The translations under genes and the position numbers were made by a program. From contig OZ037767.1 in NCBI GenBank assembly GCA_964035545.1, positions 16,089,292 through 16,153,291 on the forward strand: DNA of 64,000 bases. The letters run 5' to 3'. Shown here one piece after another: positions 1 to 40,200 of the stretch. This DNA comes from Bugula neritina (Eukaryota; Animalia; Bryozoa). Within the stretch, counting starts at the first letter, position 1. Each line of letters begins with the position of its first letter. The notes under the pieces were generated by a model. That model did not search any database. It was not told where the DNA came from and saw nothing but the letters and a program-made list of their open reading frames with translations.

Positions 1-1092
1 CCATTTTTATATTTTGGTATAATTCTCAGACTCCATCAGCAGTTGAAAAAAAATCTTTTAAGTATTTTGCCATCAGTCTTTAATAATAAAGGCGTAAACT
101 TTTCAGCTAAACAAATTAGTTTATAGTTAATTTTACAAGCCAGGAGATAAAAGGTTCAGCATTATCCTATATAGTATATACCATAATTATTATGTAATAA
201 GATCCACTTTCAAAGAACTGACACCAAGGGAAAAGCCATGTAATTACTGGTCACTCTGAGAAGATTAAAGATTGAAAAACGCAGAAAGCCAAGAATTAAA
301 GCCTGTAATAAGGTAATAGCTAAAATCTAGAGATATAATGATTACTATTTTAAGTAAAATAACCTATATAACATAATTATTATGTGTAATAAGATCTGCA
401 TTGAAAAGACTGAAACCTTTGAAAAGGTTCTGTATATAATTACTGACCAATCTCGAAGGATTGAGAAATTGAGAAATGCTCAGGGTCAGCATTTGTCCTC
501 TACCAAGATAATTATTATGTAATAAGATCTAATTTTATAAGACTCACTACTAAAGAAAAGCTGTATACTGACCAATCAGAAAGGATTAGAATTAAAAATC
601 TCAGAAAGTCAAGAATCGAAGTCTGTGATTATAAAGTTACATAACGTACTGGCACTAGCTGGTAATTACAGTCAGTTTCGGTAAGTGCTGTAAATTTGGG
701 CTGAACCTATGGAATCTCTCCTTGCTATGAAATCCCTCCTGAGTTGTTTGTACATACAACTTTGATGTGTGATTTGTTTTTATTTATAAGGTTTGTCTTG
801 AACATCAAAGAATTGTAGCCCAAACAGCTACATGGAAGCGGTTGATTCTAGCTCTATTTCCGTGAATACAGATGTGCAACTGCACCTGATACTTGTTAAA
901 CAGCTCTACCAGTATTAATATCAAACTCGATTTTGTTTTAACCAATAGATAAAACAGTAAATGAAACGTACAGGATGTGTGTTTTGACTAGTTATACTCT
1001 AAAATTGCAGCGAATTAAACTTTTCATTGATTTGCAAGTATCTCCTATCACTTGATAAATCTATTAAACTTGTTTTAAAATATTTCAAAGTT
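1..1092. repeat. Segmental duplication block L, copy 1 (runs off the window's left edge)
   Basis: Colinear, roughly 90% identical by eye to ~20914-21980. Homology ends sharply after 'ttgttttaaaatattt.aaagtt' (1092/21980). Confidence 0.9.
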
Positions 1093-2689
1093 TGATTTTA
1101 TTATGTATTAACAGCGTGGATACGACTTGTTCAAATCGAGCTTCTCGAATCCAGCCTCTGTTCTTTACCACAACTCATCGCCTTTACATCGGCCTCAACA
1201 CCAGGCTCCACAACCCTCACTAACTTCTAGTCTGTTAACTCCACCACTGAGTGAACGTAGCAGCCACTGAACTGAAACTTATAGTTCAATGGTAGCAGCA
1301 GCAGTGTAGGTGAGTTATAGGGTAGACAACTCTAGTTCTTATTTGACAACATTTGAAAATAATTGATGACTCCTATAATAAAATGATTAGCATAACATTA
1401 TATATAGTTGAAAATAGTTTTTAACAACCAGGTTTTAAATTTTGAGCTTTTAGGTATAAATAATGAAGAAAGCAATCAAATAAATAGACTAAATTATTTG
1501 AATTTATAGAAGTTACTCTCTCTTTACTGGGAAAATCTTTTGGTAGAACTACAAGCTATGCTAGATGCATATTTAATACTATTACATATATCTATTTAGC
1601 CCTGAGTATAGAAAACTTTTGGACTGCTTCTGAATTTTTGTAGGCACGATAAAATATAGGCTGTTAGTACTTGTTTTTTATGATTGCAGCTATATATATT
1701 ATTTTTGATTACAGAGTCCTCGAATGAAGGAGTTTCTTCCCCTACATCAACCAAATCGGCCATCTTGGATTTGAGAAAATCTACTGCTAAAGAAACATCA
1801 TTAAAACGAAAAACACCAAACAAAGGTAATCCTAAACTTGAATGTCTATTTTGTTAGGTTTGCTGAGTATATGCAGCGTCATAAATAATATTATTTTGAT
1901 CTAGTATCTGCAAGGTATAGTTGTTGTTTTATTTTAAATGTCTAGTCAAAATTGTGCTTTCAACATCTTTACATAACACACGTTACATTCGTAAGCATAT
2001 TTAAGCATATGTAAGCATGAATACAAGCATATATAAGCAAGTATGTGTAAACATGCTTAAACATCCTTAAACATGCATAAGTGTGCGTAAGCACATGTAT
2101 GCACGTTTCAGCATGATTAAGTAAAGACATCATAATTTCAGAAGTTGCTAATCCATCAAAGAAAAAGCGAGAAAACTCGAAGCAGAACTTGAAGCAAACT
2201 CGCAAGCTGAGCGTTACTGAGCAGTCACCTATATCTGGCATTCTGATTCGAAGAGTCACCAAGTCCCATAATTCTACACCAGATGTCAAATGTAGCTCAG
2301 AACTCTGTGGGGATATTGACTCGATGTAAGTGTTGCTAATTATTTGTTTTTATTTTTTCTTTCAGAAAAAACTGTTGGAAATTCAAATTTTCCACTGATC
2401 AAAAAAGAATTATTGCTTATACAAAAGTTATCGATTTCAACTTTTCTGTACTACATTTTGACTTTCAATGTAATTTCTTTCAAGAATTAGATTGGATGCT
2501 TGCTATTATTATATTATTGAACTATTTTTGGAAAAAATAATATTTAATTGCAAAAAATAATAAAATATTTGTTAGGGTTTTGTCTATTATAGGTTATCTA
2601 CAGACATGATAATATAAATAAATGAGTAGACTACAGCAAATCAATCTACCTTTGCCGGCTAAAGTTTTGTAAGCCATACCTGCATTGGG

Positions 2690-2930
2690 CTGTTATTTTA
2701 CCTGCATGCAGGTACCATGTAGTGGTTATCATTTCACCTGCTGCATATGGCTTAATGTTGGGCTATTTTTTACCAGCAGGTATAACAATGTTGGGCTATT
2801 ACTTTACCTGCAAGTATAACAATGTTGGGCTATTACTTTACCTGCAAGTATAACAATGTTTAAGCTACCTATTATTTTACCTGCAGGTATAACAATGTCA
2901 TAGACTATTATTCTACCTGCAGGTACAATG
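2690..2930 (+). repeat. ~40-bp tandem repeat of the splice-acceptor/exon junction inside an INSM intron
   Basis: About 5-6 diverged units of 'ttacctgca(g/a)gtataacaatgttgggctatt'. The last unit is the acceptor used in the model (ctacctgcag|gtacaatg). Confidence 0.75.
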
Positions 2931-3134
2931 TGGTGGACAAATCGGAAGAATCCAAGAGGAAGCTGATGAGCATCAAGAACGTAATTGGAGACTATATCTG
3001 TAGACTGTGTGACACCAAGTATGCAAGTGTGTACGACCTGGCTGAACACAGATGTCCGAGCATCATCTACATAGAGTACAAGTGTCCTGAGTGCTCAAAA
3101 GGTTAGAGATCATGTAATGTTAAGTTCACCCACT

Positions 3135-3210
3135 AGCAGTTGTAGTGCAAAGGTTAGGGCACTTGCTTGCAAGCTGGCGGTCTGCGGTTCAAATCCTAGT
3201 GGGGGCAAGA
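3135..3210 (+). mobile_element. tRNA-derived SINE head (Pol III A and B boxes)
   Basis: A-box-like TAGTGCAAAGG (~3143), B-box GGTTCAAATCC (~3186), anticodon-like hairpin gcttgcaagc. No clean acceptor stem, so not called a tRNA. Confidence 0.5.
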
Positions 3211-6200
3211 AGTTTAATAGGTAAAAGTCTGATTAAACTAAAATGAACAAATTTTCCCATGTAACAAATAAACTTTTATATACTTTTTGTTCAATATTCA
3301 ACTGAATTAAATAACGTAACACAGCTATAGACCTGGGTAAATGACATGTAAAATGCAGTAAATAACAATAATTGGTAACAGGCAGCAAAAATGCTTATGC
3401 TGCTGCCAATGTTTAAAAACTGTTTAACTTTTAGAAGTATAACTATAGCTAGTCATACCATGTTATGATATTAATTTAAATAAATATTTTTTTCTCTCAA
3501 ATTACCAGTAAACTATAAAAATAAGAATAGATAAATTTATAAAATACAAATTATTGAAAAAGCATATTAAAAACTTATTTACTAAAGCTTTTGGCAACCA
3601 AAACTTTAGTAAGTTAATACATATACTATATAGAGTTTTACTTTGTGGTAAATAGAGAAATTCAATTTATGTCTTTTATATGGTAATACATTTATATTAT
3701 TTATATTATATTACAAATTATTATATAATCAATATCTTTGTATCATGTTATTTGAATGTTTTATCTGTTGACTTTAATCTTTCAGTGTTCAACTGCCCAG
3801 CAAACTTGGCATCCCACAGGCGTTGGCACAAACCTAAACCTGCAGCAGACTCTCAACCCAACACTTCAAAACACAGAGAGAAAACAACTACCAAACAAAT
3901 AGTTATTGCAGCTCCGCAGCGAATACCAAACCCTGGAAGGATAACTTCTCATGATGACTAAGTTAAAATCATGTGTAAAATTCTTGTGAGACTTCCTTTG
4001 CTGAATTCTTTCGTTCATAGTAAAATATTTTAAAGAACAAACCCCCACTCCACCCACTTTCTTACTTTGTGGTTACTTATTTATATTATTTATTAGAGAC
4101 CTTTATAGCCAAAGGCTTTGTGCAATCCTATAAATATAAACATTGTTTTAGATTTTAGTGTTTTTATAGTATAAATTATATTATATATTGTTTCCTTTTC
4201 ATGGTTTAATTTAAGTTATTTATGATGTTGTCCACCATTTGAATTCCGTCCAATAAAGCTCTAACTGTCAAGTACATGTGAATACGCAATATGCTTCAAA
4301 TGGAGTGGAACAAAAGTGAAAGATAAAATCTCTACAGTATATATAGTTACATAATTCTACATCTCCAGTACTAAAGCACTTATAAGACTGGGATGTAGCT
4401 AACTCAAACAAAAAATAGCTATTTCTGTATGTTTCAGGAACTAAAGTATTAGAATTATCTTTCCAGAAAACTATAAGCCTAAAGTCTTTACTTTATAAAT
4501 ATGAATTTTTGGAAATTGAAAGATTATTTTTACTAAACTTTGTTTATCGTAAGCTTCTGCTTTTACATATTTTAAGTATTTGGAATCACTTTCGAATTTT
4601 AAAATTCTTACAATATTAAAAGAATAAAAGTTTTTAATCTTCACTGTATATATGAGTATAGAGGCAGTTTGCTTATTAATGTTTAAAACACTGTCATAGT
4701 ATTTCTTTCTTGTAGTTTTAAAATTTTCTACAGTTGCATTAAAAGTTACAAATTTTAATTATAAGGATAATATAAAAGCAGCATTTCCCTTTGCTTACAA
4801 AGCTTTACAACTATAGCTAACACTTGCATGCAGTGGAATCATTTTAGAGATCAAAAGCCTGAGATAGAATTTGCTGTTCATTTGCAGAAATTGAATTCAT
4901 TTTTCTGTTTAATGTACCATCTGAACATATTTGCTGAAAAAAACTATGAGTTGGAAAAAAAATTGAACCATTTGCTTACTTGAAATTTTGAAAACTACAT
5001 AATATAATATAAATATATAATATATATATTTTCTTGAGGAACTGTTTTCACCTGGTTAGCCTTGTTGCTAGCAAGGAATAATTTTAACACTCTACAATAT
5101 CTTTTAATTTGAAATTGTAACTGATTAACAGTTTTGGTTTACTGTTGATTATAAGATTTTATGGCAGCTCAGATTCAAACAGCTTACATGCACTATTTTA
5201 TTACCTTTTTTTCTAAAAAAAACTCTGTTTGTAAAAAAAATATAACTTATACAAATTTAAAAAAATTATGTTTTAATGGCTTTTACTAGAATTAAAATTA
5301 AAACAATATTTTTTTGGATTGAAGTATTAAAATTTGTTCAACTAAAATAAAAGGAAAATTTATGAAATTTTGTATTAAGCATTTGACTGGTTTTGTTGTA
5401 GAGTTACAGTAAAATTCTGGAGAGAATTCAGAAAAGCCACAGAAATTTCTTCCTTAACATCAAATATTAAAATTCTCAAAAATAAAGTTAGTATAGGAGA
5501 ACCTAAAGAAGTGCCACCTTTTAGTACATCTGTGACAAGAAAGTGGGTTTGGGGTCTTCCTCCACAATAAAGTGTATTAGCTACAGGCAAAGTGATGTTT
5601 ATAACAATATAAGTGTTTTACAAAAAGCATTACTGCAACTGATGTGCTCCTCTCAACTAATACTATGATTGAACAGCCCAGGTCATCTAGAGGTCAAAGA
5701 GTAGCCTCAACTCATAGTGTTCAGACTGTAAACAGCACAACTCACTAAGTGTCCATCTCTGCACAGAGCTGTGAGCTGAGTTTCTCCTGCACTGAGGTCA
5801 GGTGCTGGACAGCCTTAAGTGATGCTATACTATGCTAACAAAATTCAATTCATATTTCTGTATTTTTATGTGTGAAATTATCATATGAATGTGTGATAGT
5901 TGAATTATATACAGAGATTCAAAGTGTGCATTTTTTCTAAACATCTAACTGCCAAGCTTTATATGCTTTCAAGTTGAAATGTTTTTCAAGTTTGCAAGTT
6001 ATTTTTGATACTTCAATATATCTTAGCTATTTTCTCTACATTTAAACTTGAAATTATAACTCGTGCCAAAATAAAACAGCTCACAACATTTAGTGCAAAG
6101 TGATTTTAATTACAAATTGTTAAAAGCATTTATATATTCTTTTGCTTAAATAGTTAGAATTCTCTTACTCTAGCCGCAGTTTAAATAGTTCAAACACTTT

Positions 6201-7505
6201 CGCCGCCTACTTTCTTTCAGGAAAAAATTTTCCATTATTTCAGCATCAGCTTTCACTAATATATAATTCGTGAAATTTTCAGCTAAACAAATTAGTCTAG
6301 TTAATCTTGCAAGCCAAAAAAAGAAGATTTAGCAGTTATTCTGTACCGTTATAATTACGTAATAAGATCCACTTTTAAAAGACTCACACCTTTAAAAAGC
6401 TGTATAATTACTGACCAATCAGAGAGGATTAAAATTTGAGAAACTCGGATAGCTAAAAATCAAAAGCTGTAATGGAAGAATTACATAATAGAGTAGCTGT
6501 CATCAGCTGGTAATTACAGTCAGTTGTGGGTAATTATTGTATTTGCATGTGAGCTGTATATCCAATGGAATCAGTCAAACTTATACTAAATTTGATCCAG
6601 TAAATTTGTTTTTAAAGTTCAGGTCGTTTTTAACATCAAAGAATAATGCACCAACTATTCTTAATTATAGAAAATGAATTCCTGCAAGACTTTATTCTCT
6701 CAACCATCATTTTTAGCTTTGATTTGTCAGGTTTAATACTTAGAAATGTCATTGTAAAAGTTTTACACCTATTTTCAAACTTCCAAGTTTTATTTGAGAG
6801 AAAATATGGTTATAGAATACTATTAATAAAAATATGTTATACACACCATAAAACATACATTATACATAGTTGAACTGCTCAAAGCATACTTCAATTGAAA
6901 AACAATTTGTTTTTCAATAATATAACATATACTATATACATATAAAGCATGGATTTTATGACGTCATCATTTTAGTCTTCTTGCATATTGTGGCTTATCA
7001 TATATAACTATGAAACTTGAGCTGTTATAAACATTTTTGTTTGCTGCAAGAAGCATCAAATAAATCAAAGGATTTTCATGTTAATTATTTACACTACTTT
7101 ACTTCCTTTTTACCTTTTTTTAAGTAGAAATGGCAACACTTTTCATCGATAGGATGTTTTATTTTACTCTAAATAGTTACTTTACTATAAATGGCAGTGG
7201 GAGACAAAATTAACCAACCAGAGTTATTATATAAATCACTAAAATATAATTCATTATGGTTTCAGTTGGAATCTTGAACTTTTTCTCTAAAATGATTGGA
7301 TAAGACTATTTGCATATTTAAAGGTTCATCATCACCACTTGGAGTTTGGTTTTATAAAATATTATAAGAAGTTGGCCTAAGTTTATATATTAACCAATCA
7401 CGTGCATACGTTACTGCATTTGCTCAACCTAGTTCCTTCTGAGGTATAGGGCTCTTCCCAGGAGGTAGGGTTTTTCCCAGAGTAGTTGACCTAGTTTTAC
7501 GTTGA

Positions 7506-7571
7506 CCAATCAAATTCGAATACATTCGATTGTGACTATAAATACAGCAGTGTGTTCTGTTAAGGTTCAGT
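7506..7571 (+). promoter_or_regulatory. Core promoter of microprotein gene A: CCAAT - TATA - Inr
   Basis: CCAAT 7506, TATAAATA 7537, TCAGT initiator 7567 (about 30 bp after TATA). All three are retained in the duplicate (37482, 37513, 37543). Confidence 0.7.
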
Positions 7572-7620
7572 CTACAACTTATCTGTTTAATACATCTGAA
7601 TCTGAACTCTATTCTCCACA

Positions 7621-8580
7621 ATGAGCAGCAACAGCACATTTGGTGAGTGACTATGCATACAATACTTGTATTTTTATTCTTTAATAGGCAACATTAAAGA
7701 GAATATTCCATCTTGAAATTTTGGAACTAAATTATATCTGAGAGTAATTAAAAACATTCCCATCATTATATAGCTAAAAAACCTGTTTTAATGTTTTTCT
7801 ATTTTTAAAATGTAACTTAATAAATTTCATGTAACTTTAGTTTAGCTTGCAGAGCCTTAAAAACTTATTCTAATCTGATTCTAATCTATAACAAACTAGT
7901 AATACTGCAAACTGTTAATGTAATATTACAGCTAACTCTTTCAGTACAAGGTATTAAATTAAAAAATACTTGCTTATAATACTAAATTGCAGTGCAATAC
8001 AATAGTGTAATACATAGTTGAGTACAGAATGTGATGTATAAAATTGCATAACACTATATTTTAATTTCAGACATTAAAAAACTCCCTCCAAAGAAGAGGT
8101 ACACATTAATATGGAGGAATTTTAACATTCCTCCACCTGCACACATAGCAAGACAATATGCTGAGATAATCCAACCAGAACCATACTATGATTATAATGA
8201 GTAAGTACTGCTTTACTGCTGAGTCTTTCTGTTGTAACCAAAATTCTTAGTCAAACTGCTCTCTGATTACCAAATAAACTTTCTCCATATAATTATTTAT
8301 AGTCTAGGTCTGTCAGGTTTGTGTTTGCAAAGTTTAAATTAACAATAAAGGCATATATTTAGATATAGAAGTATTCCATGCATTCAGTAGTTCTATTAGA
8401 TGATGGTGCAATTCTAAACTTTGACTGACAGAAGAGAAACTGTTATTAGTCTTCATAATAATATCTGAATAACTATTATTTTATTATACTTTTAGAAAGA
8501 TGACAAGTTACCTCCAAGATGGCGGACTACATACATATTATGTAATAAACTCTGATACTCAGGTGAAAAGGGGGAGCTGA
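7621..8580 (+). CDS. Unknown 78-aa microprotein, 3 exons (7621-7642, 8071-8200, 8496-8580), copy A
   Basis: Strong donors (GTGAGT, GTAAGT) and acceptors (ttcag, tttag) join in phase: MSSNSTFDIKKLPPKKRYTLIWRNFNIPPPAHIARQYAEIIQPEPYYDYNEKMTSYLQDGGLHTYYVINSDTQVKRGS*. AATAAA at 8785. Frame conserved in copy B. Confidence 0.75.
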
Positions 8581-10034
8581 ATCTGTCACATGCTGAGGAA
8601 TTGAATTAGTCAGTTTTCTGTATTTTATTAACTGATCTAAACAAGTTTCTTCAAGTGTAAAGTTAGCTGAAATGTCAAACCATTATGTCAACATGATATT
8701 TCTATTTATATAACTATATAATTATATGATATTGTATATAAATATATAATGTACTATATTTTACTTGATTGTATTATTTGAACTAATAAAACTATTTTAT
8801 TATCTTGTATATACCAGGCGGGCTGAAGTATGAATGTGATTTGAATATATGTGCTTACAAATATATTTTATTGCATCTAATAATAGATTGTAAATTTTAT
8901 TGCCTGCCAAACAAGCAACTTACAGAAAATTTGAGTGAAAAAATCAAAGCTAAAAGTCTATTTCTGTAGTAGATTACATAACATTTTAAAGACTGCTGCT
9001 TTAACCATATGTAGTAACTGCTTTGAATTCAGCAGCCATCAGTCTGTATATCTGGTGTTAGCGAGGAATATTTTTAATTTGCATGTATTATTATTTTAAC
9101 ACACCCAGCTAAGACTTTCTCTACATTTAAACATGAAATCATAATTGCAGAATCAACACATGCCAATAGTGATATTCAGTATTTTAAATTTTGCTCGCTT
9201 AAATAATTATAACGCAATTCTTAGGCCAGTAAATTTTTACTGGCTTTATTCAGCTTTAACAGTACAAAAACCATATTTTGTCACTTATGCTGCCTATTTC
9301 TCCCCTAATGAACAAAGTGTTTGATTATTTTGGCGAGGGCATGTTTCTTCAATGTTAAAGGTCTTTCAGGTAAAAGAAATTTAAGAGTTCAATAGTTTAG
9401 TTTATTTACAGGCCAATGAATGAAAGTTTCGTAATTACGTATCATAATTATTATGTAATAAAATCTACTCTCAAGAGACTCACATCTTTGAAAAGCTGTA
9501 TGATTGCTGGCCAATCTGTGAGGATTAAAAATTGAGAAACTCATAAAGCTAAAAATTAAAGCCTGTAAATATAAATTTACATAATAGAGTAGCTGGTATT
9601 AGCTGGTAATTACAGTCAGCTTGGTAAGTGCTGTGCATCTGAGCTAAGTCTATGGAATCTACTCTACTTATACTAAATTTGGTCCCATAAACAAGTTTTC
9701 AGAGTTTAGGTTGTCTTCAACACAAAGAATAATTCACTAACCAATCTTAAGCAGTATGATGGCTGCAGCAAAGTCATCAGCTGAAGCCATCATATTAATA
9801 ATTTAATTTATTGCTCCTTGCTTTATACATGCATAATGTAATTATTATATAATCTTACATTTAATCAAATATAACAAAAAAATGTAGACTTGTATTGTAT
9901 ATTATGTCTATGATATATGTAAATTGCGTCTTTAGAAAGGGGGAATTTGATAGTAAACATCTATGGAAGGGGAGATGATGGTATGACAAAGGTTTGGAAT
10001 CGTTTAAGTTCTTATGGAATGAGCTGCACTTTAG

Positions 10035-10864: not shown

Positions 10865-11710
10865 TTACTATATTATCATGATGTATTCAATCACTGTCTG
10901 GTTTAATCCGCTTTTGTATGTATAGATCTTCTCATCAGTTTTGGTAAGGAAAGTATTAGCTAGCGCCAAATCACTACTTCTTGCATACTCTAGTATTTTC
11001 TCTCCATCATCATTCCTGACTTACCTTTATGCCATCTCTCAAAGCCCTCCAGTTAAACTGTTCAGTCATGTCCATTCCGGTCTCCTGCAAATATCAGTTG
11101 TTCTGATGCCGGGGTGAGTGTAATGGTTCCTTCCAGTTGGTTCCAGAATCGCTGCTCTTCCTGCTCTTTGCAACCCTGTCATGCAGGGCGCATATACGGT
11201 CACTATTTTGTATGTCTTCTCAGGTGTTATTAATTTCATTGCCATTATTCTTTCAGATGCTCTCTTAGTTGCTATTACTTTGTCTTGCCACTCCTCACTA
11301 AGGCATATTGCAACTCCATTTCTCGGTCTTCTACCTCCACTATAGTATAGTTTATAAACATCTCCGATGTTTCTTGTTTTTCCTCCCTCTTGTCCTTCCT
11401 CCATCGCGTGTCCTCCATGCATACTATGTGTATTTTTCTTTTATTCATCTTGTCTGTTACCTCTCTACTCTTTCTTGTTAGGGTGCCTATATTAAGGAAT
11501 GTCAACCTCAACTTTATTTGCCTCGCTTGTTTTCTTCTCACAGCGTCAATGCATAAGTGCCATTGCGCATCGCTTCCGGGGTATGCCCTATAGTGTTAGC
11601 TGTCTATATTCTGATTGCCTCTGGCATAATTGTTTGTGGGGCATGTTTCATTAAGGACTAGATGCTCTTCCTGATGTCCACCCTCTGTGTTCACCTGGGC
11701 TCGGGACCGG
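10865..11710 (-). mobile_element. RTE-clade LINE fragment (5' end and AP-endonuclease domain, frameshifted, no RT)
   Basis: Frames give LTFLNIGTLTRKSREV...IHIVCMEDTRW, YKLYYSGG..RNGVAI..SERIMAMKL..IVTVYAP and NDDGEKILEYA..DLALANTF..YTYKSG, typical RTE/BovB-type endonuclease motifs. Confidence 0.85.
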
Positions 11711-11970
11711 CTGTTTGCTCCTCTGGTTTGCTGAGCATTCAGGAAACATTCTGACTATCATGTATACCAGTGTTATTACCTGCCTTTGTTTAACATAATT
11801 TTTCATGTCTTTATATGTATAGTTGGTTATTGATGGTCTGGTTAAGACCTAGAACTTAATAGGTCAGTCTTTGGTTGGGAAAGTGAAGGACAAACCTTCA
11901 CAGATGTAGGTTAAATATTATGCTAAGAGTACGTGTATCTTTTACAGGACTTCCTTATCATATAACCAAG

Positions 11971-14900
11971 ATGGCAGAATCCAGAGTTGTGAAAAAAAGA
12001 CTAAACAACTCGTATCGCTGTGGGTACTGCTCACAGTACTTCAACAAACTTGAAGATCCCAGAACTCTGCCCTGTCTGCATGTGTACTGCATGCGATGTT
12101 TGAAGACTGACATCGGTGGTAGGAAGGATCATATTAGATGTGCTTATTGTAGGTGAGTTACAGTAAATAACACAATATATCATGTCATAGGCTTGCATAT
12201 AATTTTCTCTTTTATCATCTAGGAGTTGTCTCATCTATTTCTATGAAAAGCTAAAAATACTGTATATTCTATGTGAACTCTGGTTACTAACTTGTGGATA
12301 AGGATAGTATTTTAACTAAATATTAAAATTCAATTTAAATGCTCCCACTTTTTGTACCTTCTACTCTCTATAATTTTATATATAATTGAGTTTTGTTTAT
12401 CATTGTACTTGAAGTCAAAGTTTTGGCATCTAAAAGGGTGGCTATCATAATTATTAAGTACTTTGCTTAGTAATTAACATTAAGTCATCACTTTTATTAG
12501 CAGACAACATTTTAGCTAGCAGTATTTTTCTACTTCTCAGGTATATCTGGTGTCTTCATGGATCGATCGATCTGAGACAGTGATTGTGTAATAGCCTGTG
12601 GTCTATATAATGAATGTGTGTTGATGAGTGATGAGTATCTATTTGAGTATTTGTCAAGGACATAGCTGTGTGTGTGGATGGAGTATTTCATTACTTGAGA
12701 CATCATACTATATTATACTTCCTGGTATACTAAACAGAGATAACACACTGCAATTAATATATTGTAGGAAAGATCACTATGACATAACAGACCCCACTAC
12801 TCTACCTGTTGCAAAGCATGGAGACCCGCTGGAATATAAATCTCCACCCAAACCTGCACCCATGCCTTGCGATGTTTGTAAAGATGGAACGGAAGCTGCC
12901 ACATTCTGTGTGGAGAGTCAAAAGAGGTTGTGTCAGCAGCATCAAGAAGTGAGTCTTTCTTATATCATGTCTCAAGATTGGTTACTAAACCAGTTCTGGT
13001 TTGTGTGTAGAATATTATTGAAAAGAAATGTTGAGTCTGTGTGACTTTTTATACTAAACACACAGTTTCACAGTGCAGTGAGTCAACTATGACAGACTTG
13101 TTGGTGAAAATACAACCAACTAAACTGTTGACCTTTATTATACAGACTCACGGAGAGCTGATGGGAGATAGACATCAGTTTATTGACATTGAGGTCTACA
13201 GAGCTTTTCCCCAAAGATATACTATAACTGAATGTGAACATCATAAACAGGAACAGCTGACAGAAGTGTGTTCCAAGTGTCACCAGATATTCTGTATGAG
13301 ATGTGATATGAGGACTGGCTGTAAGGATGAGACAGGTATTTACTTGCTGTTTCTATTTCTGCAGAAAGAAACTGAGAAATATTACAAGAACCTGTTATCT
13401 ATTATTTTATCATTAAAATAAGTTATGTAACAGCAAAAGAGGATGTAGGTTTTTCAGACTGAGTTGATATGAATATTGAAACGAGATCTTGTGAAAAAAA
13501 ATTAAAAAAGACAGGCTAACGGCTAGAGGTGTTTGTCAGCATATTACGGTTTGTGTGAGACAGAAGTGGATAGTGCAGGAGTTTATATTCTCACTGTTAT
13601 GTTGAATATTTAATATATTTTATCCTTCAAGTGTCTGTTTCCTTGATAAGATGGTATAGACATAACTTTAACTCACCGGTGTCCCACCTTTTTCAAACCA
13701 TTCCGCCTTTTTATAAGTGTTTTCTATGAAGTTTCCCCCTTTTAAAAAACACTATTTTATATTTATAAAGAAAATCTGGGACAGGTTCTTTTCCCTAATA
13801 ATTCTTTGAGTGTAAGAACAGTCACTTAGTTTTTGACGACATGGAACAGTGTCTGCAACAACTTCAGTTATTAGCTTTGAAAGCATTGATGCTGCTATTA
13901 AAAGCTGTGAGTTGATGATTAAACTCATTCATTTTAGATTCAGATTTTTTAGTGGAGCAAATATATCTACTAGGTATGCAGTAAATTGTTTATAGGGATC
14001 AGTTTGACTGGCTGCAAAAAATTTCCTTTTGTTTTTTGCTTTAAAGAAACTTTTTAACCTCCATTCGTAGCAGGAGAGGTAGCAGCTAGGGTAGAGTTAA
14101 TATTAGACACATGGATGTAGAAGTAAACTTAGATTATAGAGTGTAGTGTGGATAAATAAGTGAACTAAATAAAACGAAGGTTTTATAGTTATACATATAC
14201 ATGTAACTTAGAATACAAGGGAAGCGCTTAGAGAGCTGGAAAAAACTGTGTGAATTTTTTAAAAATCAAAACCCCTTTTAAGCCCAGATTCTACACAAGG
14301 AGGAGCTCCCCTAAGGTTGGAGCTACTGCTTTAAATTTTTTAACTACATTATTCCAAGTGCAGTGAATAATGAGCTAACCATGTGACATCTTTCTAGAAT
14401 GTCCCTTTGTGTAAATTAGTGCTAGAGAAAGGTCAGCTATGATCAACTCAGATAGCAATACTTGAGACAGAGTCCAACTGTTTAGTAATTACATAGTATG
14501 TGTATAGTGATACATCATCTACCTGTAGTTACAGATAGTATAGGTGTACAATATCATATCTAAAAGTATATTACTTTTACTAATAGTGTGATTTTATGTA
14601 TACAGAAGAGACAGTAGCATTCCATGACTTGGCATCTTTGAGTGATTTGTCTTGTGAATTACGAGAAAGTCTGACTAGTGGAATAGAGACTCTGTCTGAG
14701 AAAGTTGCAAAGTTGAATGACATCTCAAAGGATGCCTGGAAAGAACTGAGTAAAATAGAAGATGAAGTGAAGAAGATGGTTGCCAGAGTAAACGCTGTAG
14801 CTGATGCTCAGGTATGCTGACATGGTGATGTCATCTAATGTATTTCTGTTTGTCTGAAATTAGATTTTGCATTTGGTCTTTCAGTTGTAATCAGAAATGA

Positions 14901-17900
14901 ATTTCATTTGTCATTAAAATTAACTGGCCATTAAAGCATTATCATTCTGTGTGCAGGTAGCAGTAGTCATTCATCACATGTAAGCCTAGGGCCACACGGT
15001 GCGTATTTTCGCATGCGAAAATTGAAATCACAAGTAGCAAAGGTGTCCACTGTACGCGTTGAGAAAACATTCGCACTTGTCGCTCAGCATTCTCAACGCA
15101 AGTGCGAATCGTCTCTGTCGTCGTCACTTAATTGGCTGGTAGTTCTTCAGGGAGCCCAATTTCTTTATTTTAGTGCTACATTCCAGTAAATTGCGTTTTA
15201 TTAAAAGTGAGTGCGATTTAAAAATGAAAGCTTCATTTATCACGCATCACTGGCGCTACAGTGGACACCTTTGCTACTTGTGATTTCAATTTTCGCATGC
15301 GAAAATACGCACTGTGTGGCCCTAGGCTTACTCAGTGCAGAGGAACCTGCATGTCAATACAGATGACTCAATCATCCTTCTGCAACTGTCATTCACTCAA
15401 ACAGGGAGGTTGGCTGTGTGAGTGATTGACAGGTGTCAGGAGGAGGAGACTAGTCACATGATGTACTAACTCTCTGCTGTGTATTATGAAGTGTCATGTG
15501 ACTGAGTCATTGTATTTTTAGTGGGTGATTTGTCACTTTCATTTCAAGTGTAGAGGTTGGGAGGTGCAGATGTGGTTATAATGTGTTACTATTTATTAGA
15601 TAGAAGAGATTAGAAAGAGAGCTACAAACCTGAGTCTAGAAATATATGGATATTTGAAGAGCTGCACACAGATAGTGGATAATTATAGAATAGATCTGGC
15701 CTTGAGTAAGACAATGGGCAGACAGTCTCTGCTGGACACAGTACAACATGCAGTTGATAAGTTCAATGATGCAGGGATTGTGAGAGACTACAAAGAGATG
15801 AGTGGGAAGATGGAAAAGGCTACAGATATTGGTGTAATAGAGAAGTGTGTACTTCCAGACAGCATCTTAGTACCAACATGTAGGTGGAGTCTACAAATAG
15901 TAACACTAACTATAAATAACTTTCTGCTTGTAATCAGTTAAATTGCTTTCATTGAATATTTGAATAGGTGAATAAAGAGAAGCCTCTGATAATTAGAAAA
16001 GTAGATAGGGTTTGTTTATTAGAGAATTGAGTTTTGTTCTACTTTCACATTATGAGACATTTCTGCAGTGTTTCAGAGTTTATGAGGTATAAGTGAGCTG
16101 CTATACTGTGTTATGCTGACTCCCTGCTGTCAGTATTAACAAAATATTCTCACTTAGACCTGTGCATCACGCAGCAACTTGTAGTAAATACAGAATGCTT
16201 GTATTTAAAACATCTTTTCATTTCAAGTTTGAAAAGCTGTTCCCCACCTCCTCAGGTGATGAGATTCTCAAGTTATAGTATTGTTATTTTGTTGTTGCAG
16301 ACAGTGAAAACAGTCTGGGACTGAAGCTGCTGCAGCCACCAGCTTCTCTTCAGTCTGATGGACTTCCTGTAGGTGGAGAGTTTAAGACAGTAAACATCTC
16401 AGCTGATGGACATGTGTTGTGTCGGACAGGAGGAGGTATAGAAATAAGAAATAGAGACTCTCTGAATACTATAATCAGCTCAGTGAAGAACACCGACACT
16501 ACAAAGTGGTTGGAGATAATCCAACCTGAAGGGGTGATGGTTGGCAGCTGGTATAACAGAGAGGAGAAAACAGTTGAAGTCTCACTCCTTGATCCGAACT
16601 CCTTTGAAAAGTCTCGCTCTGTCTACAAGCAGTCAGTAAATGAACTCACTTACTATAGAATAGCTCAGCACCTCTCACTGCTCTATATTGTAGACAGTGA
16701 AGAGAAACAGCTGGTAGTCTGTGATCTAGTTGACAATGAAATACAGAAGTTCCCACTTCCTGAGATGAAGTACCCTGTACCTGTATGCATCCTCCCAGAC
16801 TCAACTCTCCTCATAGGAGACTACGCTGCAGATGGTAAAGTAAGAAGGTATAAAGTGGAGAACACAACTCTCACTCTAATGTGGGAGTTTCCACACATCT
16901 CACGACCATCTGGTATTTCCTTTGATCCAACATCTGAACTGATTCACATCTGTACAGGGATGGGACCTCTCCTCATCCTCTCACTTGAAGGTAAATACTC
17001 TGTTTATTATAGTAAGTTTAGTTATTTTATATATAATTATGTTGCATTAAATGATATATTTTAATAATTAACAGTAAACAACTTCCACTCATAAGATTTA
17101 TTATGATAATGCTAGTAATTATCAAGTCAGTGATGTCATTTTTAGCTAAAAGTCGTGTAATACAGACCGTAACATGCTGATAGTAGATGTTATATTCTTC
17201 ATCACATGACTTGTAGCTAATAATAATATTAGTGAATAATACTGCCTCCCTGCAATAAGTTTATTTCCAGCTGCGCAGTAACATGCAGGCTGTACGTAGC
17301 ACAGGTAAAAGTGTATATTATACTGTATAGGTTTAAAGTGTATTATGTGTAGTGTGCAGTGAGCTCTTAGTAAACTTTCTATTCAGTCTTCCTTTCTAAG
17401 GGTCCACCTGGTAGTGTAGAGGATAGGGACTCCACACTGCTAAGTGAGTTGGTGCTGCAAGGGGTTCAAACCCACTTATCAGCATGTCTAGTTAGTATAC
17501 TATGGAAGTGTTTTACAGTAGTTTTAGAGGTGCTCAGTCTAACAACTGTACAGTCTGCCAGCTACACTTGAGTTATGAGTTGTAGTTTGGCTTCAGTCTA
17601 GTGCTGCTATTATGTTGGTTATCAGATAATTTAAAGATAAATAATTTAATACTTTTTGACCCGCCATTACTGAGACTATTGTAACTTGATGATGGCTGGT
17701 AGAGCAGTGTTTGCTGGTGGGACTCAGGTGGCTGTGGTTGGTTCTTGTCAAGTATTTAATATGTGATAATGTTGGAGTAGCTGCAGTAGTAGTTAGAAAT
17801 AGACATGCATGTGGGCGTGTTCTTGCTAAAGACCGCAGGCTAAGTTTTTGGGTCAAGGTCAATACAGTAGTATAATGAGACACTATTTTCTGCTCTGTTT

Positions 17901-18141: not shown

Positions 18142-19787
18142 ACTTATCAGCTACAGTTTACTAATAATCAGCTCAGTGAGGTACTGAGAGATAAAATGGA
18201 TATTTGTCATCAACATAATTATATTCATTACAATTCAATACACACACTAATGATAGTGTCAGGTATATTATATTGTGTGTTTCATTTACACTGTAATTAT
18301 ACCTTTGTATATTATTCCATGTTCAGCAGAACTTGCACTGCTTATATGCATTATTATATTATAATTGTCATGAATTGTAGTTATTTAAGATATTTGACTG
18401 TATCCAATATTTGTTGCTATTTTACTATCTAATAAAGTTCATTTGTTAGTGAAAACATAGTTAGTTTTCATGCCTCATTAGCTTTAGTTCAGGTTAAGTT
18501 TGGTTACTAAAAAATAATCTTTACTGGAGCAGTAACTGTAAATGACTCCTCTGTGGGAAAATGCATTCACTGAATTGACACGCAGGTGCAAGTAACTCCA
18601 ACATGACTGTAGGCAAGTTTTTCCAAACATATTGAAATACAATTTATTGCTGTGTATACAACAGCATTGAGTAGCCAATCAAATTGTTTCTTGTTGTGCA
18701 TTTAGGAATCTGATAAATAATAATATATAAGGCAATCAACTAGATATAAACACTGTTTTACTCTACACATGAGCTGTCTGTGATACAGTCGCTTTGTAAA
18801 ATGTGTTTCATTTGATGAGTTTAGTTCAATTGGTTGCAGTTTAATTATGATGTGTTGCCCTATTCACCTGGTAGAAATACCATGTGTACTGACAGAGGAC
18901 AACTCCTAAGCATGTCTAAAGGCTTCCTTTTAGTAAACAAGATATCACAATGCTATCATCTGATTGGACAATTCTGTTCTCATGAAACTGCAATTAGTGC
19001 TCTTGTGTGAATTGAGACAAGTTGCCACGTTGGCTTTATAAAATGCAAATAGTGCAGGAAAAGCTGAATCTGCTGCATTTTGAGAGAGCAAAAGTATAAT
19101 ACTGTAGTAGATTACATAACACTTTAATAACTGCTGTTTTTATTCATGTTAGCTGCTTTGAAATCAGCAGCTATTAGTCTGTATACATGACGCTGTCACA
19201 TATTCTCATACTGCATATCATATTTATAAAGTAAATAATCTGCAACTAAAGCAGCATAAGCATGTTTACATAATATCAAATCATTTATTGCATATATTTT
19301 TCTTATATAGTGGGTTCACAAGTGTTGGGCTATTATGTTAACAAAATTCAATTTATCTTTCTGTATTTTCATTTGTAAAATAGACATAATTATGATTGGT
19401 GTAAATGTGTAATAGATTAATTATATGCATATAAATTCAAAGTGTGCAAACTTTTCTAAACATCAAACTGCTAATTAGTTTTATGCTCTCAAGTTTTAAA
19501 ATGTTTCTTGAGTTTGCAAGTTGTCTTAATATTTGGTATTTAAACAGCCTATAAGCTAAACTTTCTTGATTATTATTATTGTTATTATTATTCTCTCGTA
19601 TACCAGACATGCTGAAGTAACTTGAATAGGTGTGCATACAGATATCTTTTATTTTATCCAATAATTGATTGCAATCCTTATGTTGCCTACAGGTGCCTAA
19701 CAGCAAAGTTGAATGAAAAGATAAGAGAGCTAAAAATCTGATGGTGTAGTAGATTACATAACATTTTAATAACTGCTGCCTTCCTTT

Positions 19788-20430
19788 TGTAGTGAATTTA
19801 GCAATTCACTATGTTATGTGGGTCGACTTAACCAAAACTACAACACCAGGTTATTTACGTTATGATAAGTTTATTATTTACAATATACAAGAATTGAATT
19901 ACTGCTAACATGAATTGAACGATTACATAATAAAGAGCCTTTACACACAACTACTCTAAGCCTAGGGCCACACTGTGCGTATTTTCGCATGCGAAAATTA
20001 AAATCACAAGTAGCAAAGGTGTCCACTGTAGCGTCAGTGATGCGTGATAAATAAAGCTTTCATTTTTAAATCACACTCGCTTTCAATAAAACGCAATTTA
20101 CTGGAATGTAGCACTAAATAAAGAAATTGGGCTCGCTGAATAGCTACCAGCCAATTAGGTGACGACGACAGAGACGGTTCGCACTTGCGTTGAAAATGCA
20201 GAGCGACAAGTGCGAAGGTTTTCTCAACGCGCACAGTGGACACCTTTGCTACTTGTGATTTCAATTTTCGCATGCGAAAATACGCACCGTGTGGCCCTAG
20301 GCTAAGCGAAGTCCCAAGCTGCTCTGCCGGCTAGCTACTCAGCGTGCTTCCACTGCGTAGCTAGCTCTACCTGCTATCAATTACCAGTCAGTCCTGATTG
20401 GCTAGCGTTAGTGGTGGCACTGCCGACTGT
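19788..20430 (-). mobile_element. Diverged solo/partial LTR related to the Gypsy element at 51348-58865, interrupted by a MITE
   Basis: Aligns with that LTR from 'tgtagtgaattt' through 'gaagtcccaagctgctctgccggctagctactcagcg...tcctgattgg'. Confidence 0.8.
19960..20302. mobile_element. PIF/Harbinger-type MITE, family 1 (opposite orientation, nested in the solo LTR)
   Basis: Same TIRs. TAA target duplication. The empty site is visible in the intact LTRs (actactctaaatgaag). Confidence 0.9.
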
Positions 20431-23512: not shown

Positions 23513-23810
23513 AGTAATACAGTAATACAAGCTGAGTAATACAGTAATACTAACTGAGTAATACAGTAATACTAGGTGAGTAATACAGTAACACTACCTG
23601 AGTAATACAGTAATACTAGCTGAGTAATACAGTAATACTAACTGAGTAATACAGTAATACTAGCTGAGTAATACAGTAATACTAACAGAGTAATACAGTA
23701 GTACTAGCTAAGTAATACAGTAATACTAGCTGAGTAATACAGTAATACTAGTTGAGTAATACAGTAATACTAGCTGAGTAATATAGTAATACTAGCAGAG
23801 TAATACGAGA
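23513..23810. repeat. Intronic minisatellite, ~23-bp unit (taatactagctgagtaatacag)
   Basis: About 12 tandem units. Confidence 0.9.
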
Positions 23811-23997
23811 CAGTACCTGGTAAGTCCAGGGTCTCTGTGTCTTCATCTCGATGCACATGAACCCTTCGGTCTCGTTGTTAGCGGTGAAGGTCGTTCCTCG
23901 AGGAAACTTAGACATGTCAATACCTCTGCCAAAGTCTATCAGCTTTATGCTGGATGAGGAGAACGGCTTTTCGGGAAAAACTTCGGGACTATACGGG

Positions 23998-35558: not shown

Positions 35559-38500
35559 GTGTTTTACAAGAAGCATTACTGCAACTGGATGTGTTCCTCT
35601 CAACTATATTACTATGATTGAACAGCCCAGGCCAGCTAGAGGTCAAAGAGTAGCCTCAACTCATAGTGTTCAGACTATAAGCAACACAACTCACTAAGTG
35701 TCCATCTCTGCACTGAGCTGTGAGCTGAGTTTCTCCTGCACCGAGGTCAGGTGCTGGACAGCCTCAAGTGTTGCTATATTATGTTAACAAAATTCAATTC
35801 ATGTTTCTGTATTTTTATGTGTGAAATTATCATATTAATGGTGTAAGTGTGTGATAGTTGAATTATAATATACAGAAGTTCAAAGTGTACATCTTGTCTA
35901 AAAGTCAAACTGCTGTGTTTTATATGCTTTATGTGCTTTATATGCCTTCAAGTTGAAATGTTTGTTAAGTTTGCAAGTAATTTTTGGATATTTCAATATA
36001 CCTGAGCTATTTTCTCTGCATTTAAACTTGAAGTTCTAACACATGCCAATATAAAAACAGCTCACAACATTTAGTACTGAGTGATTTCAATTACAAATTG
36101 TTAAAAGCATCATTATATTCTGTTTGCCTAAATAGTTATAATTCTCCTACTTTAGCCACAGTTTAAGTAGTTCAAACACTTTCGCCGCCTACTTTCTTTT
36201 AGGAAAACAATTTCCATTATTTCAGCATCAGCTTTCAGTAATATATAATCAGTGAAATTTTCAGCTAAACAAATTAGTCTAGTTAATCTTGCAAGCCAAA
36301 AGAAAGAAAGTGTAGCAATAATTCCGTACCATAATTATTATGTAATAAGATCCACTTTCAGAAGACTCACACCCTTGAAAAGCTGTATAATTACTGACCA
36401 ATCAGAGAGGATTAAAATTTGAGAAACTCAGAAAGCCAAAAATCAAAGGCTGTAGTTAAAGAATTACATAATAGAGTAGCTGTCATCAGCTGGTAATTAC
36501 ATTCCAGTTGTGGGTAATTACTGTACTTGCATGTGAGCTGTATATCCTATGGAATCAGTCTAACTTATACTAAATTTGATCCAGTAAATTTGTTTTTAAA
36601 GTTTAAGTCGCTTTTGCCATCAAAGAATAATGCACCAACTATTTTTAGTTATAGCAAATGAATTCCTGCAAGACTTTATTCTCTCAACGATCTTTTTTAG
36701 CTTTTATTTGTCAGGTTGAAACTTTGGAAATGTTATTGTAAAAGTCTTACACCTATTTGCAAATTTCCAAGTTTTATTTTAAAGAAAACATGCATGGCTA
36801 TAAAATATTATTAATGGCAATATGTGGCACACCATAAAATATTCATTATATAGTCGGACTGATCAAAGCATACCTTAATTCCAAAACAATTTGTTTTTCA
36901 ATAATATAATATATACTATATACATATAAAGCATGTATTTTATGACCATCATTTTAGTCTTCTTGCATATTGTGGCTTCATATATAACTATGAAACTTGA
37001 ACTGTTATAAATATTTTTGTTTGCTGCAAGAAGCATCAAATAAATCAAGTAATTTTCATGTTAATTATTTGCACTGCTTTACTTTCTTTCTACCTTTCTT
37101 TAAATAGAAATATCAGCACCTTTAATAAATATGATGTTTTATTTTACTCTAAATAGTTACTTTACTAATGGCAGTGGGAGACAAAATAACCAACCAGAGT
37201 TATTATATAAATTACTAAAATATAGTTCATTATGGTTTCAGCTGGAATCTTGAACTTTTTCTCTAAAATGCTTGGATAAGACTATTTGCATATTCAAAGG
37301 TTCCTCATCACCACTTGGAGTTTGGTTTTATAAAATATTATAAGAAGTTGGCCTAAGTTTATATAATAACCAATCACATGCATCCGTTACTGCATTTGCT
37401 CAACCTGGTTACTTCTGACGTAAAGGGCTCGTCCCAGGAGGTAGGGTTCTTCCCAGAGTAGTTGACCTAGTATTATGTTGACCAATCAAATTCGAACACA
37501 TCCGATTGTAACTATAAATACAGCAGTGTGTTCTGTTAAGGTTCAGTCTATACAACTTATCTGTGTAACACATCTGAATCTGAACTCTATTCCCCACAAT
37601 GAGTAGCAACAGCACATTTGGTGAGTGGCTATGCATACAGTACTTGGATTTTTCTAATTTATCAGGCAGCATTAAAGAGAATATTCTATCTTGAAATTTG
37701 GGAACTAAATTATATCTGAGATTAATTAAAAACATTTTCATCATTATAGTTAGGAACACTTTTTTATGTTTTCCTGGTTTTAAAATGTAACTATTATTAG
37801 GTTTTAAGTAACTTTAGTTTAGCTTGCAGAGCCTTTAAAACTTATTCTAATCTGATTCTAATCTACAATCTAGTAATACTGCAAATTGATTGTAATATCA
37901 CAGCTAACTCTTTCGGTACAAAGAATTTGTTTAAATTAAAAATACTTGCTTAGTACTAAATTGCAGTGCAATACAATAGTGTAATATGTAGCGGAGTACA
38001 AAATAGGATGCATGAAATTGCATAATACTATATTTTAATTTTAGACATTAAAAAACTCCCTCCAAAGAAGAGATACACGTTAGTATGGAGGAATTTTAAC
38101 ATTCTTCCACCCGCACACATAGCAAGACAATATGTGGAGATAATCCAACCAGAACCATACTATGATTATAATGAGTAAGTACTGCTTTACTGCTGAGTCT
38201 TTTTGTTGCAACCGAAATTCTTAGTCGAACTGCTCTCTGATTACCAGATGAAATTTCTCCATATTGATATTTCTAGCCTAGATCTGTCAGGTTTGTGTTT
38301 GCAGGGCTTAAATTAACAATAAAGGCATATATTTAGATATAGAAATATTCTATGCAATCAGTAGTTCTATTAGATGATGATGTAATTCTAAACTTTGACT
38401 GGCAGAAGAGAAACTGTTATGAGTCTTCATATTAATATCTGAATAACTATTATTTCATTATACTTTTAGAAAGATGACAAGTAACCTCCAAGATGGTGGA

Positions 38501-40200
38501 CTACATACATATTATGTGATAAACTCTGATACTCAGGTGAAAAGGGAGAGCTGAATCTGCCACATGCTGAGGAATTGAATTACTCAGTTTTCTGTATTTT
38601 ATTAACTGATCTACACAAGTTTCTTCAAGTGTAAAGTTAGCTGAAATGTCAAACCAGCATGTCAACATGATATTTTTATTTATATAAATATATAATTACA
38701 TAATATTGTATACAAATATATAATGTACTATATTTTATTTTATTGTATACTATTCGAACTATTAACCTTATTTTATTATCTTGTATGCCAGGCGGGCTGA
38801 AATATAAATGTGACATTAATATATGTGCTTACAAATATATTTTATTTCATCTAATATTAGATTGTAATTTTTATTTCCTGCCAAACAAGCAACTTACGAA
38901 AAATTTGAGTGAAAAAATAAGAGCTAAAAGTCTATTTCTGTAGTAGATTACATAACATTTTAAAGACTGCTGCTTTAACCATATGTAGTAACTGCTTTGA
39001 ATTCAGCAGCCATCAGTCTGTATATATATCTAGTGTTAGCGAAGAATATTTTTAATTTGCATTTATTATTATTTTAACACACCCAGCTAAGACTTTCTCT
39101 ACATTTAACTGTGAAATTATAATTGCAGAATCAACACATGCCAATAGTAGTTATAACTGATAGTTATATTCAATATTTTATATTTTGCTTGCTTAAATAA
39201 TTATAAAGCACTTCTTAGGCCAATAATTTTTTACTGGTTTTATTCAGCAGCAATCAGTCTGTATATCTGGTGCTACCGAATATTTTTAATATGTATTTAT
39301 TATTAGTTTAACACACCCATTCAACTGTGAAATTATAATTGCAAAATCAACACATGCCAATAGTAGTTATAACCACTAGTTATATTCAATATTTTATATT
39401 TTGTTTGCTTAAATTATTATAAAGCTATTCTTTATAGGCCAGTAAATTTTTATTGGATTTATTCAGCTTTAACAGTACAAAAACCATATTTTGTCACTTA
39501 TGCTGCCTATTTCTCTTCTAATAAACAAAAGTTTTGATTATTTTGGCATGGGCATGTTTCTTCAATGTTAAAGGTCTTTCAGGTAAAAGAAATTTAAGAG
39601 TTCAACAGTTTAATTTATTTGCAGGCCAATGAATGAAAATTTCGTAATTACGTATCATAATTATTATGTAATAAAATATGCTCTCAAGAGACTCACATCT
39701 TTGAAAAGCTGTATGATTGCTGGCCAATCTGTGAGGAATAAAAATTGAGAAACTCAGAAAGCTGAAAGTTAAAGCCTGTAAATACAAAGTTACATAATAG
39801 AGTAGCTGGCATTATAGCTGGTAATTACAGTCAGCTTGGTAAGTGCTGTGCATGTGAGCTATGAAATCTGCTCTACTTATACTGAATTTAGTCTCTTGAA
39901 ATAGTTTTCAGAGTTTAGGCTGTTTTCAACACAAAGAATAATGTATTAACCAATCTTAACAGTGTGATGGCTGCAGCAAAAGTCATCAGCTGAAACCATC
40001 ATATTAATAATTGAATTGCTCCTTGCTTTATACATGCATAATATAATTATTATGTAATCTTCTATTTAATCAAATATAACAGAACAAATATAGACTTGTA
40101 TTGTATATTATGTCTATCATATATGAGGTGCGTTTTTAGAAAGGGGGAATTTAATAGTAAGCTTTATGGAAGGGGAGATGACGGTATGACAAAGGCTTGG
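35559..40200. repeat. Segmental duplication block R, copy 2
   Basis: Colinear with 5613-9997, plus an extra ~180-bp local duplication near 39245-39430. Confidence 0.9.
37599..38554 (+). CDS. Unknown 78-aa microprotein, 3 exons (37599-37620, 38045-38174, 38470-38554), copy B
   Basis: Exon lengths identical to copy A (22/130/85 nt), no indels, same start, stop and splice sites. Five amino-acid changes and at least six silent changes. Confidence 0.75.

What the first reader, a model, noticed from the sequence alone, without database searches (positions are those of the whole stretch)
7506..8790. Hidden duplicated 78-aa microprotein gene with an LPPKKR motif
Seen: invisible to the ORF track, but it has CCAAT-TATA-Inr, three in-phase exons and a polyA signal (AATAAA in copy A only). 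Copy B keeps exon sizes and frame while the introns have indels. At least 6 silent versus 5 replacement codon changes is a silent excess relative to site counts. I recognise no known domain. Established: LP-x-KKR resembles a monopartite NLS and the TBL1/TBLR1(NCoR)-binding motif of MeCP2 (LPIKKR). Inference: a lineage-specific nuclear microprotein, possibly a corepressor decoy, co-duplicated with the TRIM gene.
Basis: partly seen in the sequence, partly recalled or inferred. Interest (0 to 1): 0.7.

Follow-up and report, generated by a model that had tools for sequence, protein, structure and literature searches.

The report
Duplicated microprotein gene with corepressor-like motif
An invertebrate genome holds two copies of a tiny three-exon reading frame with a full promoter and few amino-acid changes between copies; it is likely a real gene, and its 78-residue product is predicted to be switched on by NF-kB and possibly to occupy the TBL1/NCoR corepressor, but expression and binding are untested.

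Summary
The gene model holds. Copy A (exons 7621-7642, 8071-8200, 8496-8580) and copy B (37599-38554) are both open 78-codon frames with GT-AG introns, NF-Y/TATA/Inr spacing and no exon indels. Eleven codons differ, 6 silent and 5 replacement; a neutral simulation expects about 15 replacements or stops (P about 0.001). New here: two GGG-N5-CCC, NF-kB-like sites sit at -120 and -101 in both promoters. No homologue was found, but the neighbouring TRIM exon found none either, so 'lineage-specific' is weakly tested. No RNA run was available. KLPPKKR scores close to MeCP2 on the published fly PLKKR (Smrter/Ebi) matrix and is rare in nulls, yet it has Pro where every validated binder I saw has Leu/Ile, and it fails the strict TBLR1 and NLS patterns. 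The TRIM copies are half as diverged (3.9% vs 8.4%), so simple co-duplication is doubtful. Verdict: probably a real, selected small-protein gene (about 0.8); kB-inducible (about 0.4); TBL1/NCoR competitor or adaptor (about 0.3). Worth an RNA-seq check and one peptide-binding test.

The parts
7392..7400 (+). distal NF-Y/CCAAT box (-177), kept in copy B
7449..7459 (.). kB-like site 1, GGG-N5-CCC (-120); arms identical in copy B 37425-37435
7468..7478 (.). kB-like site 2 (-101); matches the Dorsal consensus GGGWDWWWCCM in A, one change in B 37444-37454
7504..7512 (+). proximal NF-Y/CCAAT box (-65)
7537..7544 (+). TATA box at -32
7567..7572 (+). initiator-like TCAGTC; predicted start 7569
7621..7642 (+). 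coding part of exon 1 (ATG, 22 nt)
8071..8200 (+). exon 2 (130 nt); KLPPKKR at 8079-8099, Pro/Tyr-rich segment
8112..8135 (+). 9-bp hairpin inside exon 2; the change in copy B falls at the stem as G-U
8496..8580 (+). coding part of exon 3 with TGA
8785..8790 (+). AATAAA, copy A only; a second AATAAA lies inside exon 3 of A at 8544
37368..38776 (+). copy B of the gene, same promoter elements and exon sizes (exons 37599-37620, 38045-38174, 38470-38554)
6031..6664 (+). left member of diverged direct repeats that bound the gene (period about 3.09 kb)
9116..9750 (+). right member of the flanking direct repeats

Best explanation
Two intact copies of a three-exon, 78-codon frame with NF-Y/TATA/Inr promoter motifs differ by few amino acids; this is likely a real small-protein gene, predicted to be induced through paired NF-kB-like sites, whose probably disordered product would use its KLPPKKR motif to bind the WD40 domain of TBL1/TBLR1 (fly Ebi) and so compete with DNA-bound repressors for the NCoR/SMRT-HDAC3 complex. 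Shown: gene anatomy, duplication, replacement deficit, motif conservation, absence of a signal peptide or hydrophobic stretch. Inferred: transcription and translation (about 0.8), kB control (about 0.4), TBL1 binding (about 0.35 if translated), competition rather than bridging (no DNA-binding domain or second known corepressor motif, so competition is favoured).
For: Gene model and intact copy B. Neutral simulation expects 14.1 replacements plus 1.0 stop, 5 seen, P 0.001; silent changes 6 against 4.2 expected. The other two plus frames carry 8 and 10 stop codons. In DNA run X1 none of 9 of 9 indels and none of the 12 shown of 39 fall in coding exons. Promoter elements differ at 0 of 44 nt against 14 of 157 other nt, P 0.028. 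4 of the 7 GGG-N5-CCC matches in 64 kb are these two pairs; local shuffle P(one or more) 0.008; p50 homodimers prefer 11-bp GGG...CCC sites (PMC10527052). PLKKR domains pull down Smr/Ebi/HDAC3 (PMC9890238); KLPPKKR scores 17.55 bits, reached by 1 of 79,702 null 7-mers and by 0.012% of shuffles; xLPPKKR ties with MeCP2 in that paper's FIMO table; the tested Ash1 domain has the similar context KLPLKKRHYLL. The one change inside the motif is silent.
Against: Only 12 nucleotide differences, and the frame was chosen after seeing both copies; conditional P is 0.017. The matrix rests on 5 sites (E 0.18), has Leu in all 5 at the position where this protein has Pro, and gives Pro there the second-worst score; its rank-3 human hit is a histone H1, so it also picks up plain basic patches. 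MeCP2 Ile303 contacts TBLR1 directly. The strict pattern P[IL]KK[RW]K is not met. In fly scratch the LPPKKK stretch lies outside the best repressive tile. X1 shows one more replacement (8155) and 3 of the 6 coding changes shown are replacements. Copy B lacks AATAAA/ATTAAA. The two kB-like sites may stem from one short tandem duplication and were noticed by eye before testing.
Confidence: 0.3

Rival explanations
1. Real small protein, but the basic patch is only a nuclear or nucleolar targeting or nucleic-acid-binding segment, and function lies in the Pro/Tyr-rich middle and C-terminal part (for example a phosphotyrosine or SH3/WW-type adaptor).
For: 5 Lys/Arg in residues 10-17; 8 Tyr and 7 Pro in 78 residues; three YxxPhi stretches. 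Selection is on the whole frame, not only the motif.
Against: Classical NLS patterns, PY-NLS, PPxY and Crk-SH3 PxLPxK are not met; a 9.2-kDa protein needs no import signal to enter the nucleus (general knowledge).
Confidence: 0.28
2. Real promoter and spliced RNA, but the RNA is the product or the frame is not translated; the exon-2 hairpin and splice signals explain the conservation.
For: Exon 2 folds better than shuffles in both copies (z -3.0 and -2.7); total exon divergence is only marginally below flanks (P 0.066).
Against: Silent sites are not constrained (pS 0.155); replacements are depleted; no Rfam family over the gene; exon 3 has no unusual fold (z 0.39).
Confidence: 0.14
3. Accessory or captured gene of a mobile or repeat unit: the 3.09-kb stretch between diverged direct repeats is spread by recombination or transposition and the protein serves the element.
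For: Direct repeats at 6031-6664 and 9116-9750 bound the gene and recur 10 times in the window; X1 holds at least four versions of intron 1, one under 90% alike.
Against: No terminal inverted repeats; introns are intact, so not a retrocopy; only two copies in the window; four versions fit two diploid loci; no transposon protein match.
Confidence: 0.1
4. Copy B is an allelic haplotype wrongly assembled in tandem, or a decaying copy; the gene is real but single.
For: Divergence is uneven along the duplication (8.4% vs 3.9%); B lacks AATAAA and carries two Gypsy-type insertions downstream.
Against: 8% divergence with 31 indels in 3.4 kb is high for alleles; X1 carries A-like, B-like and further versions; B's frame and promoter elements are intact.
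Confidence: 0.1
5. Chance arrangement of signals in AT-rich DNA; no gene.
For: No homologue and no RNA; single elements such as TATA-Inr are common.
Against: Joint architecture P about 0.002, intactness P 0.016 and replacement deficit P 0.001.
Confidence: 0.08

Closest known systems
PLKKR repressive motif (fly Snail, Ash1; binds Smrter/Ebi/HDAC3) and the MeCP2/SETD5 NID (PMC9890238, PMC13385800)
   Same: K-L-P-x-K-K-R core followed by aromatic and aliphatic residues; high matrix score.
   Different: Pro at the Leu/Ile position, Tyr after Arg; known carriers are large chromatin or DNA-binding proteins, here the motif stands almost alone in 78 residues; binding untested.
Bearded-family proteins (motif-only competitors of Delta for Neuralized; PMC12678834 passages and reference titles, size and induction recalled)
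   Same: Working principle proposed: short protein with a simple promoter that carries one linear motif and competes for a shared cofactor.
   Different: No sequence relation, different motif and target; the function here is inferred.
Ataxin-1 N-terminus (CLPPKKRE, seen as an antibody peptide in PMC3420947), HIVEP1-3 (KLPPKKK), C3G (PPALPPKKR, PMC8705818)
   Same: Same LPPKK[KR] letters.
   Different: No similarity outside the motif; the Crk-SH3 rule PxLPxK is not met.
Taxonomically restricted spliced small-ORF genes of animals (general knowledge)
   Same: Short, intron-containing, TATA-driven, missed by ORF finders, no database match.
   Different: Nothing shown to differ; this is the class it is filed under.

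Membership tests
Spliced small-ORF protein gene | open frame under 100 codons with start, stop and canonical splice sites | tested here: met
Spliced small-ORF protein gene | purifying selection on the protein | tested here: met
   pN/pS 0.17; simulation P 0.001, conditional P 0.017; two copies only
Spliced small-ORF protein gene | transcribed, spliced and translated | not testable with these tools
   no RNA holder listed; X1 is contiguous across introns
Taxonomically restricted gene | no homologue outside the lineage | tested here: inconclusive
   no hits with a 50-residue exon-2 query, but the TRIM control also found none
PLKKR / NID TBL1-binding proteins | match to the published PLKKR matrix | tested here: met
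   17.55 bits vs MeCP2 18.82; 6 of 7 positions
PLKKR / NID TBL1-binding proteins | Leu/Ile after Pro and Lys after Arg/Trp, as in MeCP2 and SETD5 | tested here: not met
   Pro and Tyr instead
PLKKR / NID TBL1-binding proteins | physical binding to the TBL1/TBLR1 WD40 domain | not testable with these tools
Classical monopartite NLS | K[KR]x[KR] or [PR]xxKR[^DE][KR] (patterns recalled) | tested here: not met
Crk SH3 ligand | PxLPxK | tested here: not met
NF-kB target gene | kB-type sites near the start, conserved | tested here: met
   two 11-bp GGG-N5-CCC sites, arms kept in both copies
NF-kB target gene | binding and induction by NF-kB | not testable with these tools
   needs EMSA, reporter or challenge RNA-seq
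Transposon gene | terminal inverted repeats, LTR pair or match to a transposon protein | tested here: not met
   flanking direct repeats are only 75-93% alike

The most novel reading that the evidence does not exclude
A stand-alone PLKKR-type microprotein: an NF-kB-induced 78-residue competitor that strips the TBL1/NCoR-HDAC3 corepressor from repressors, giving an invertebrate immune response a dedicated derepression (or feedback) switch with no described counterpart.
Probability: 0.13. Interest if true: 0.75.

Novelty: new member of a known kind. Interest (0 to 1): 0.45.

Why it matters
At the least it is a gene that standard annotation would miss, with a compact promoter that predicts when it is expressed. 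If the motif binds TBL1, it would be a natural miniature inhibitor of the pocket used by MeCP2 and SETD5, a pocket for which peptide competitors are being sought (PMC9995496), and would show that Pro is tolerated there, which bears on LPPKK[KR] stretches in ataxin-1 and HIVEP proteins.

Tried and rejected
No RNA holder listed; X1 contigs run through both introns with no joints, so they say nothing on splicing; their depth was not used as copy number. No whole genome is held and the Atlas gave no answer, so copy number and look-alikes stay open. Homologue searches with the 50-residue exon-2 frame (7 residues intron-derived): 0 hits near length, 0 of 5 candidates longer, 0 in 1.84 billion representatives, 0 Pfam, 0 PDB, 0 of 37 viral stretches. 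The 1 hit of 593 metagenome stretches (L001) is the antisense strand of a bacterial enzyme gene with stops on both sides: chance. Suspected decayed paralogues near 5800 and 18600-19100: none beat shuffles clearly (one of 11 alignments scored 41 against a shuffle maximum of 39). Exon 3 derived from the flanking repeat: E 0.31, not supported. Nesting in a BUB1 intron: no BUB1 N-terminal exons recognised by eye in the minus-strand frames. Structure: pLDDT 59.6, pTM 0.31 for the fragment, too weak to search. EH1, PxDLS, WRPW, PPxY, PY-NLS patterns absent. In one search two of five TRIM exons were read in the wrong frame and were dropped; the other three gave 7 silent and 9 replacement changes. Earlier scan notes: nothing. 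Paper search was confounded by 'ncORF'.

Full report
Setting. The window is AT-rich, intron-rich animal DNA. An INSM-like zinc-finger gene ends near 3960 (exon matches INSM1, E 9e-12), a RING/B-box/coiled-coil/NHL-type TRIM gene lies at 11.9-18.1 kb and a BUB1-like kinase is on the minus strand (E 3e-5). The segment 5613-10001 recurs at 35559-40204 and the TRIM segment 11905-16210 at 59703-63998, in the same order and orientation. The lineage was not determined; the TRIM layout reminds me of lophotrochozoan expansions (recalled, not tested).

Observation. Exons of 22, 130 and 85 nt give 78 codons and TGA, with donors GTGAGT and GTAAGT and pyrimidine-rich AG acceptors; copy B has the same sizes and is open. 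TATAAATA lies at -32 from a TCAGTC initiator, with NF-Y boxes at -65 and -177; AATAAA is at 8785 in A, and B has neither AATAAA nor ATTAAA in the 745 nt after its stop. The combined promoter-plus-donor pattern occurs once in 1-23 kb and in about 2 of 1000 shuffles; I defined it after seeing the site, and TATA-Inr alone is not significant.

Selection. Eleven codons differ, 6 silent and 5 replacement (12 nt; pN/pS 0.17). Using the substitution spectrum of the 3.1 kb of aligned non-coding DNA, 50,000 neutral simulations expect 4.2 silent, 14.1 replacement and 1.0 stop codons; P(5 or fewer) is 0.001, or 0.017 when conditioned on 11 changed codons; the chance that frame, start and splice dinucleotides all survive is 0.016. 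Overall exon divergence (5.1%) is only marginally below the flanks (8.6%, P 0.066). All five other frames contain 2 to 10 stop codons; one antisense frame shares the silent excess, as expected from shared third positions. The one public run that holds the region (X1) is contiguous across introns and shows A-like, B-like and further versions; none of 9 of 9 indels and none of the 12 shown of 39 lie in coding exons; of the 40 substitutions shown (of 109), 6 are coding, 3 silent and 3 replacement, one of them new. No RNA run was listed, so expression is open.

Promoter. Two GGG-N5-CCC sites lie at -120 and -101 in both copies; they make up 4 of the 7 matches in the window, where shuffles give 2.3 on average and 0 of 100 reach 7. 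A local shuffle gives P 0.008 for one site. Their arms and the other named elements show 0 changes in 44 nt against 14 in 157 (P 0.028). p50 homodimers prefer 11-bp sites with G triplets (PMC10527052, passages); site 2 of copy A fits the Dorsal consensus (PMC2626603, passages); cnidarian NF-kB proteins bind a consensus kB site like p50 (PMC12221839, passages). Induction by NF-kB is an inference; the pair may derive from one 19-nt duplication.

Protein. 9.2 kDa, pI 9.2, no hydrophobic stretch, 8 Tyr and 7 Pro; the exon-2 fragment folds poorly (pLDDT 59.6). No homologue was found (the single hit is chance). These used exon 2 only, and a 230-residue exon of the neighbouring TRIM also found 0 of 1206 candidates, so the collections are thin for this lineage.

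The motif. Fly repressive domains with a PLKKR motif pull down Smr, Ebi and HDAC3, and the motif is needed for repression (PMC9890238, passages). On that paper's matrix (supplement) KLPPKKR scores 17.55 bits, against 18.82 for MeCP2 and 26.0 for the consensus; 1 of 79,702 null 7-mers and 0.012% of 200,000 shuffles reach it. In the paper's human table xLPPKKR ties with MeCP2, and the Ash1 bait has a similar context. Against: the matrix comes from 5 sites, all with Leu where this protein has Pro; it also ranks a histone H1 third; q-values are high; the MeCP2 and SETD5 motifs are PIKKRKT and PLKKWKS (PMC13385800, passages), and the Ile contacts TBLR1 (PMC9995496, passages and supplement legend; the array figure was not readable). 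The LPPKKK of scratch lies outside its best tile. Classical NLS patterns (recalled) and the Crk rule PxLPxK (PMC8705818, passages) are not met. So it may work like a PLKKR ligand, but it is not filed as one.

Mechanism. Best reading: an inducible gene for a small, probably disordered protein that docks on the TBL1/TBLR1 WD40 pocket and, having no DNA-binding domain, competes with repressors for NCoR/SMRT-HDAC3; the analogy is the Bearded proteins, which share Delta's Neuralized-binding motif and inhibit it (PMC12678834, one passage and reference titles). Odds: gene translated 0.8, TBL1 binding 0.35 of that, kB control 0.4. The main rival, a real protein whose basic patch is only a targeting segment, is nearly as likely.

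Duplication. The gene segment is 8.4% diverged and the TRIM segment 3.9%, so either two events or later conversion of the TRIM part. The gene also sits between older direct repeats about 3.09 kb apart, which could drive copy-number change; there are no terminal inverted repeats.

Novelty. Searches for LPPKKR (4 papers), PLKKR with corepressor (2 versions of one study) and microprotein with TBL1XR1 (4 papers, listing only) showed no stand-alone microprotein of this kind; the library lacks most subscription journals. On present evidence it is a new member of a known kind, an unannotated spliced small-ORF gene, with a testable and moderately likely corepressor-competitor hypothesis.

Noticed in passing
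window 1715-3960 (+): INSM-like zinc-finger gene split by introns; one exon matches INSM1 (E 9e-12). It ends about 3.5 kb upstream of the microgene.
   Followed up: partly
window 22000-35500 (-): BUB1-like kinase gene with long tandem repeats in introns and repeat-expanded exons (33387-33938, 34783-35256); its N-terminal exons were not recognised and it appears to stop at the edge of duplicate B.
   Followed up: partly
window 40353-45655 and 51348-58863: Two Gypsy-type LTR elements inside duplicate B, LTR pairs 94% and 99.5% alike, on opposite strands.
   Followed up: no
window 11677-11755 (-): Weak match to twister-P1 ribozyme (29.8 bits, E 0.0025, gathering 67.2) next to a LINE-like endonuclease fragment at 11066-11595.
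   Followed up: no
window 8112-8135: Perfect 9-bp hairpin in coding exon 2, z about -3 in both copies; role unknown.
   Followed up: partly
window 137-624, 6315-6468, 9409-9564, 21041-21512, 36292-36451, 39622-39777: A roughly 170-nt dispersed repeat in 10 copies, partly tandem, carrying CCAAT-like words.
   Followed up: partly
window 14980-15331, 19957-20303, 62768-63117: About 350-nt element with 75-nt terminal inverted repeats, MITE-like, in three copies.
   Followed up: no
window 6959-6966: A full CRE palindrome at -610 in copy A, absent in copy B.
   Followed up: no
window 11905-16210 vs 59703-63998: TRIM copies differ by 3.9% with 7 silent and 9 replacement changes in three exons read correctly; no homologue found for its NHL exon.
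   Followed up: partly
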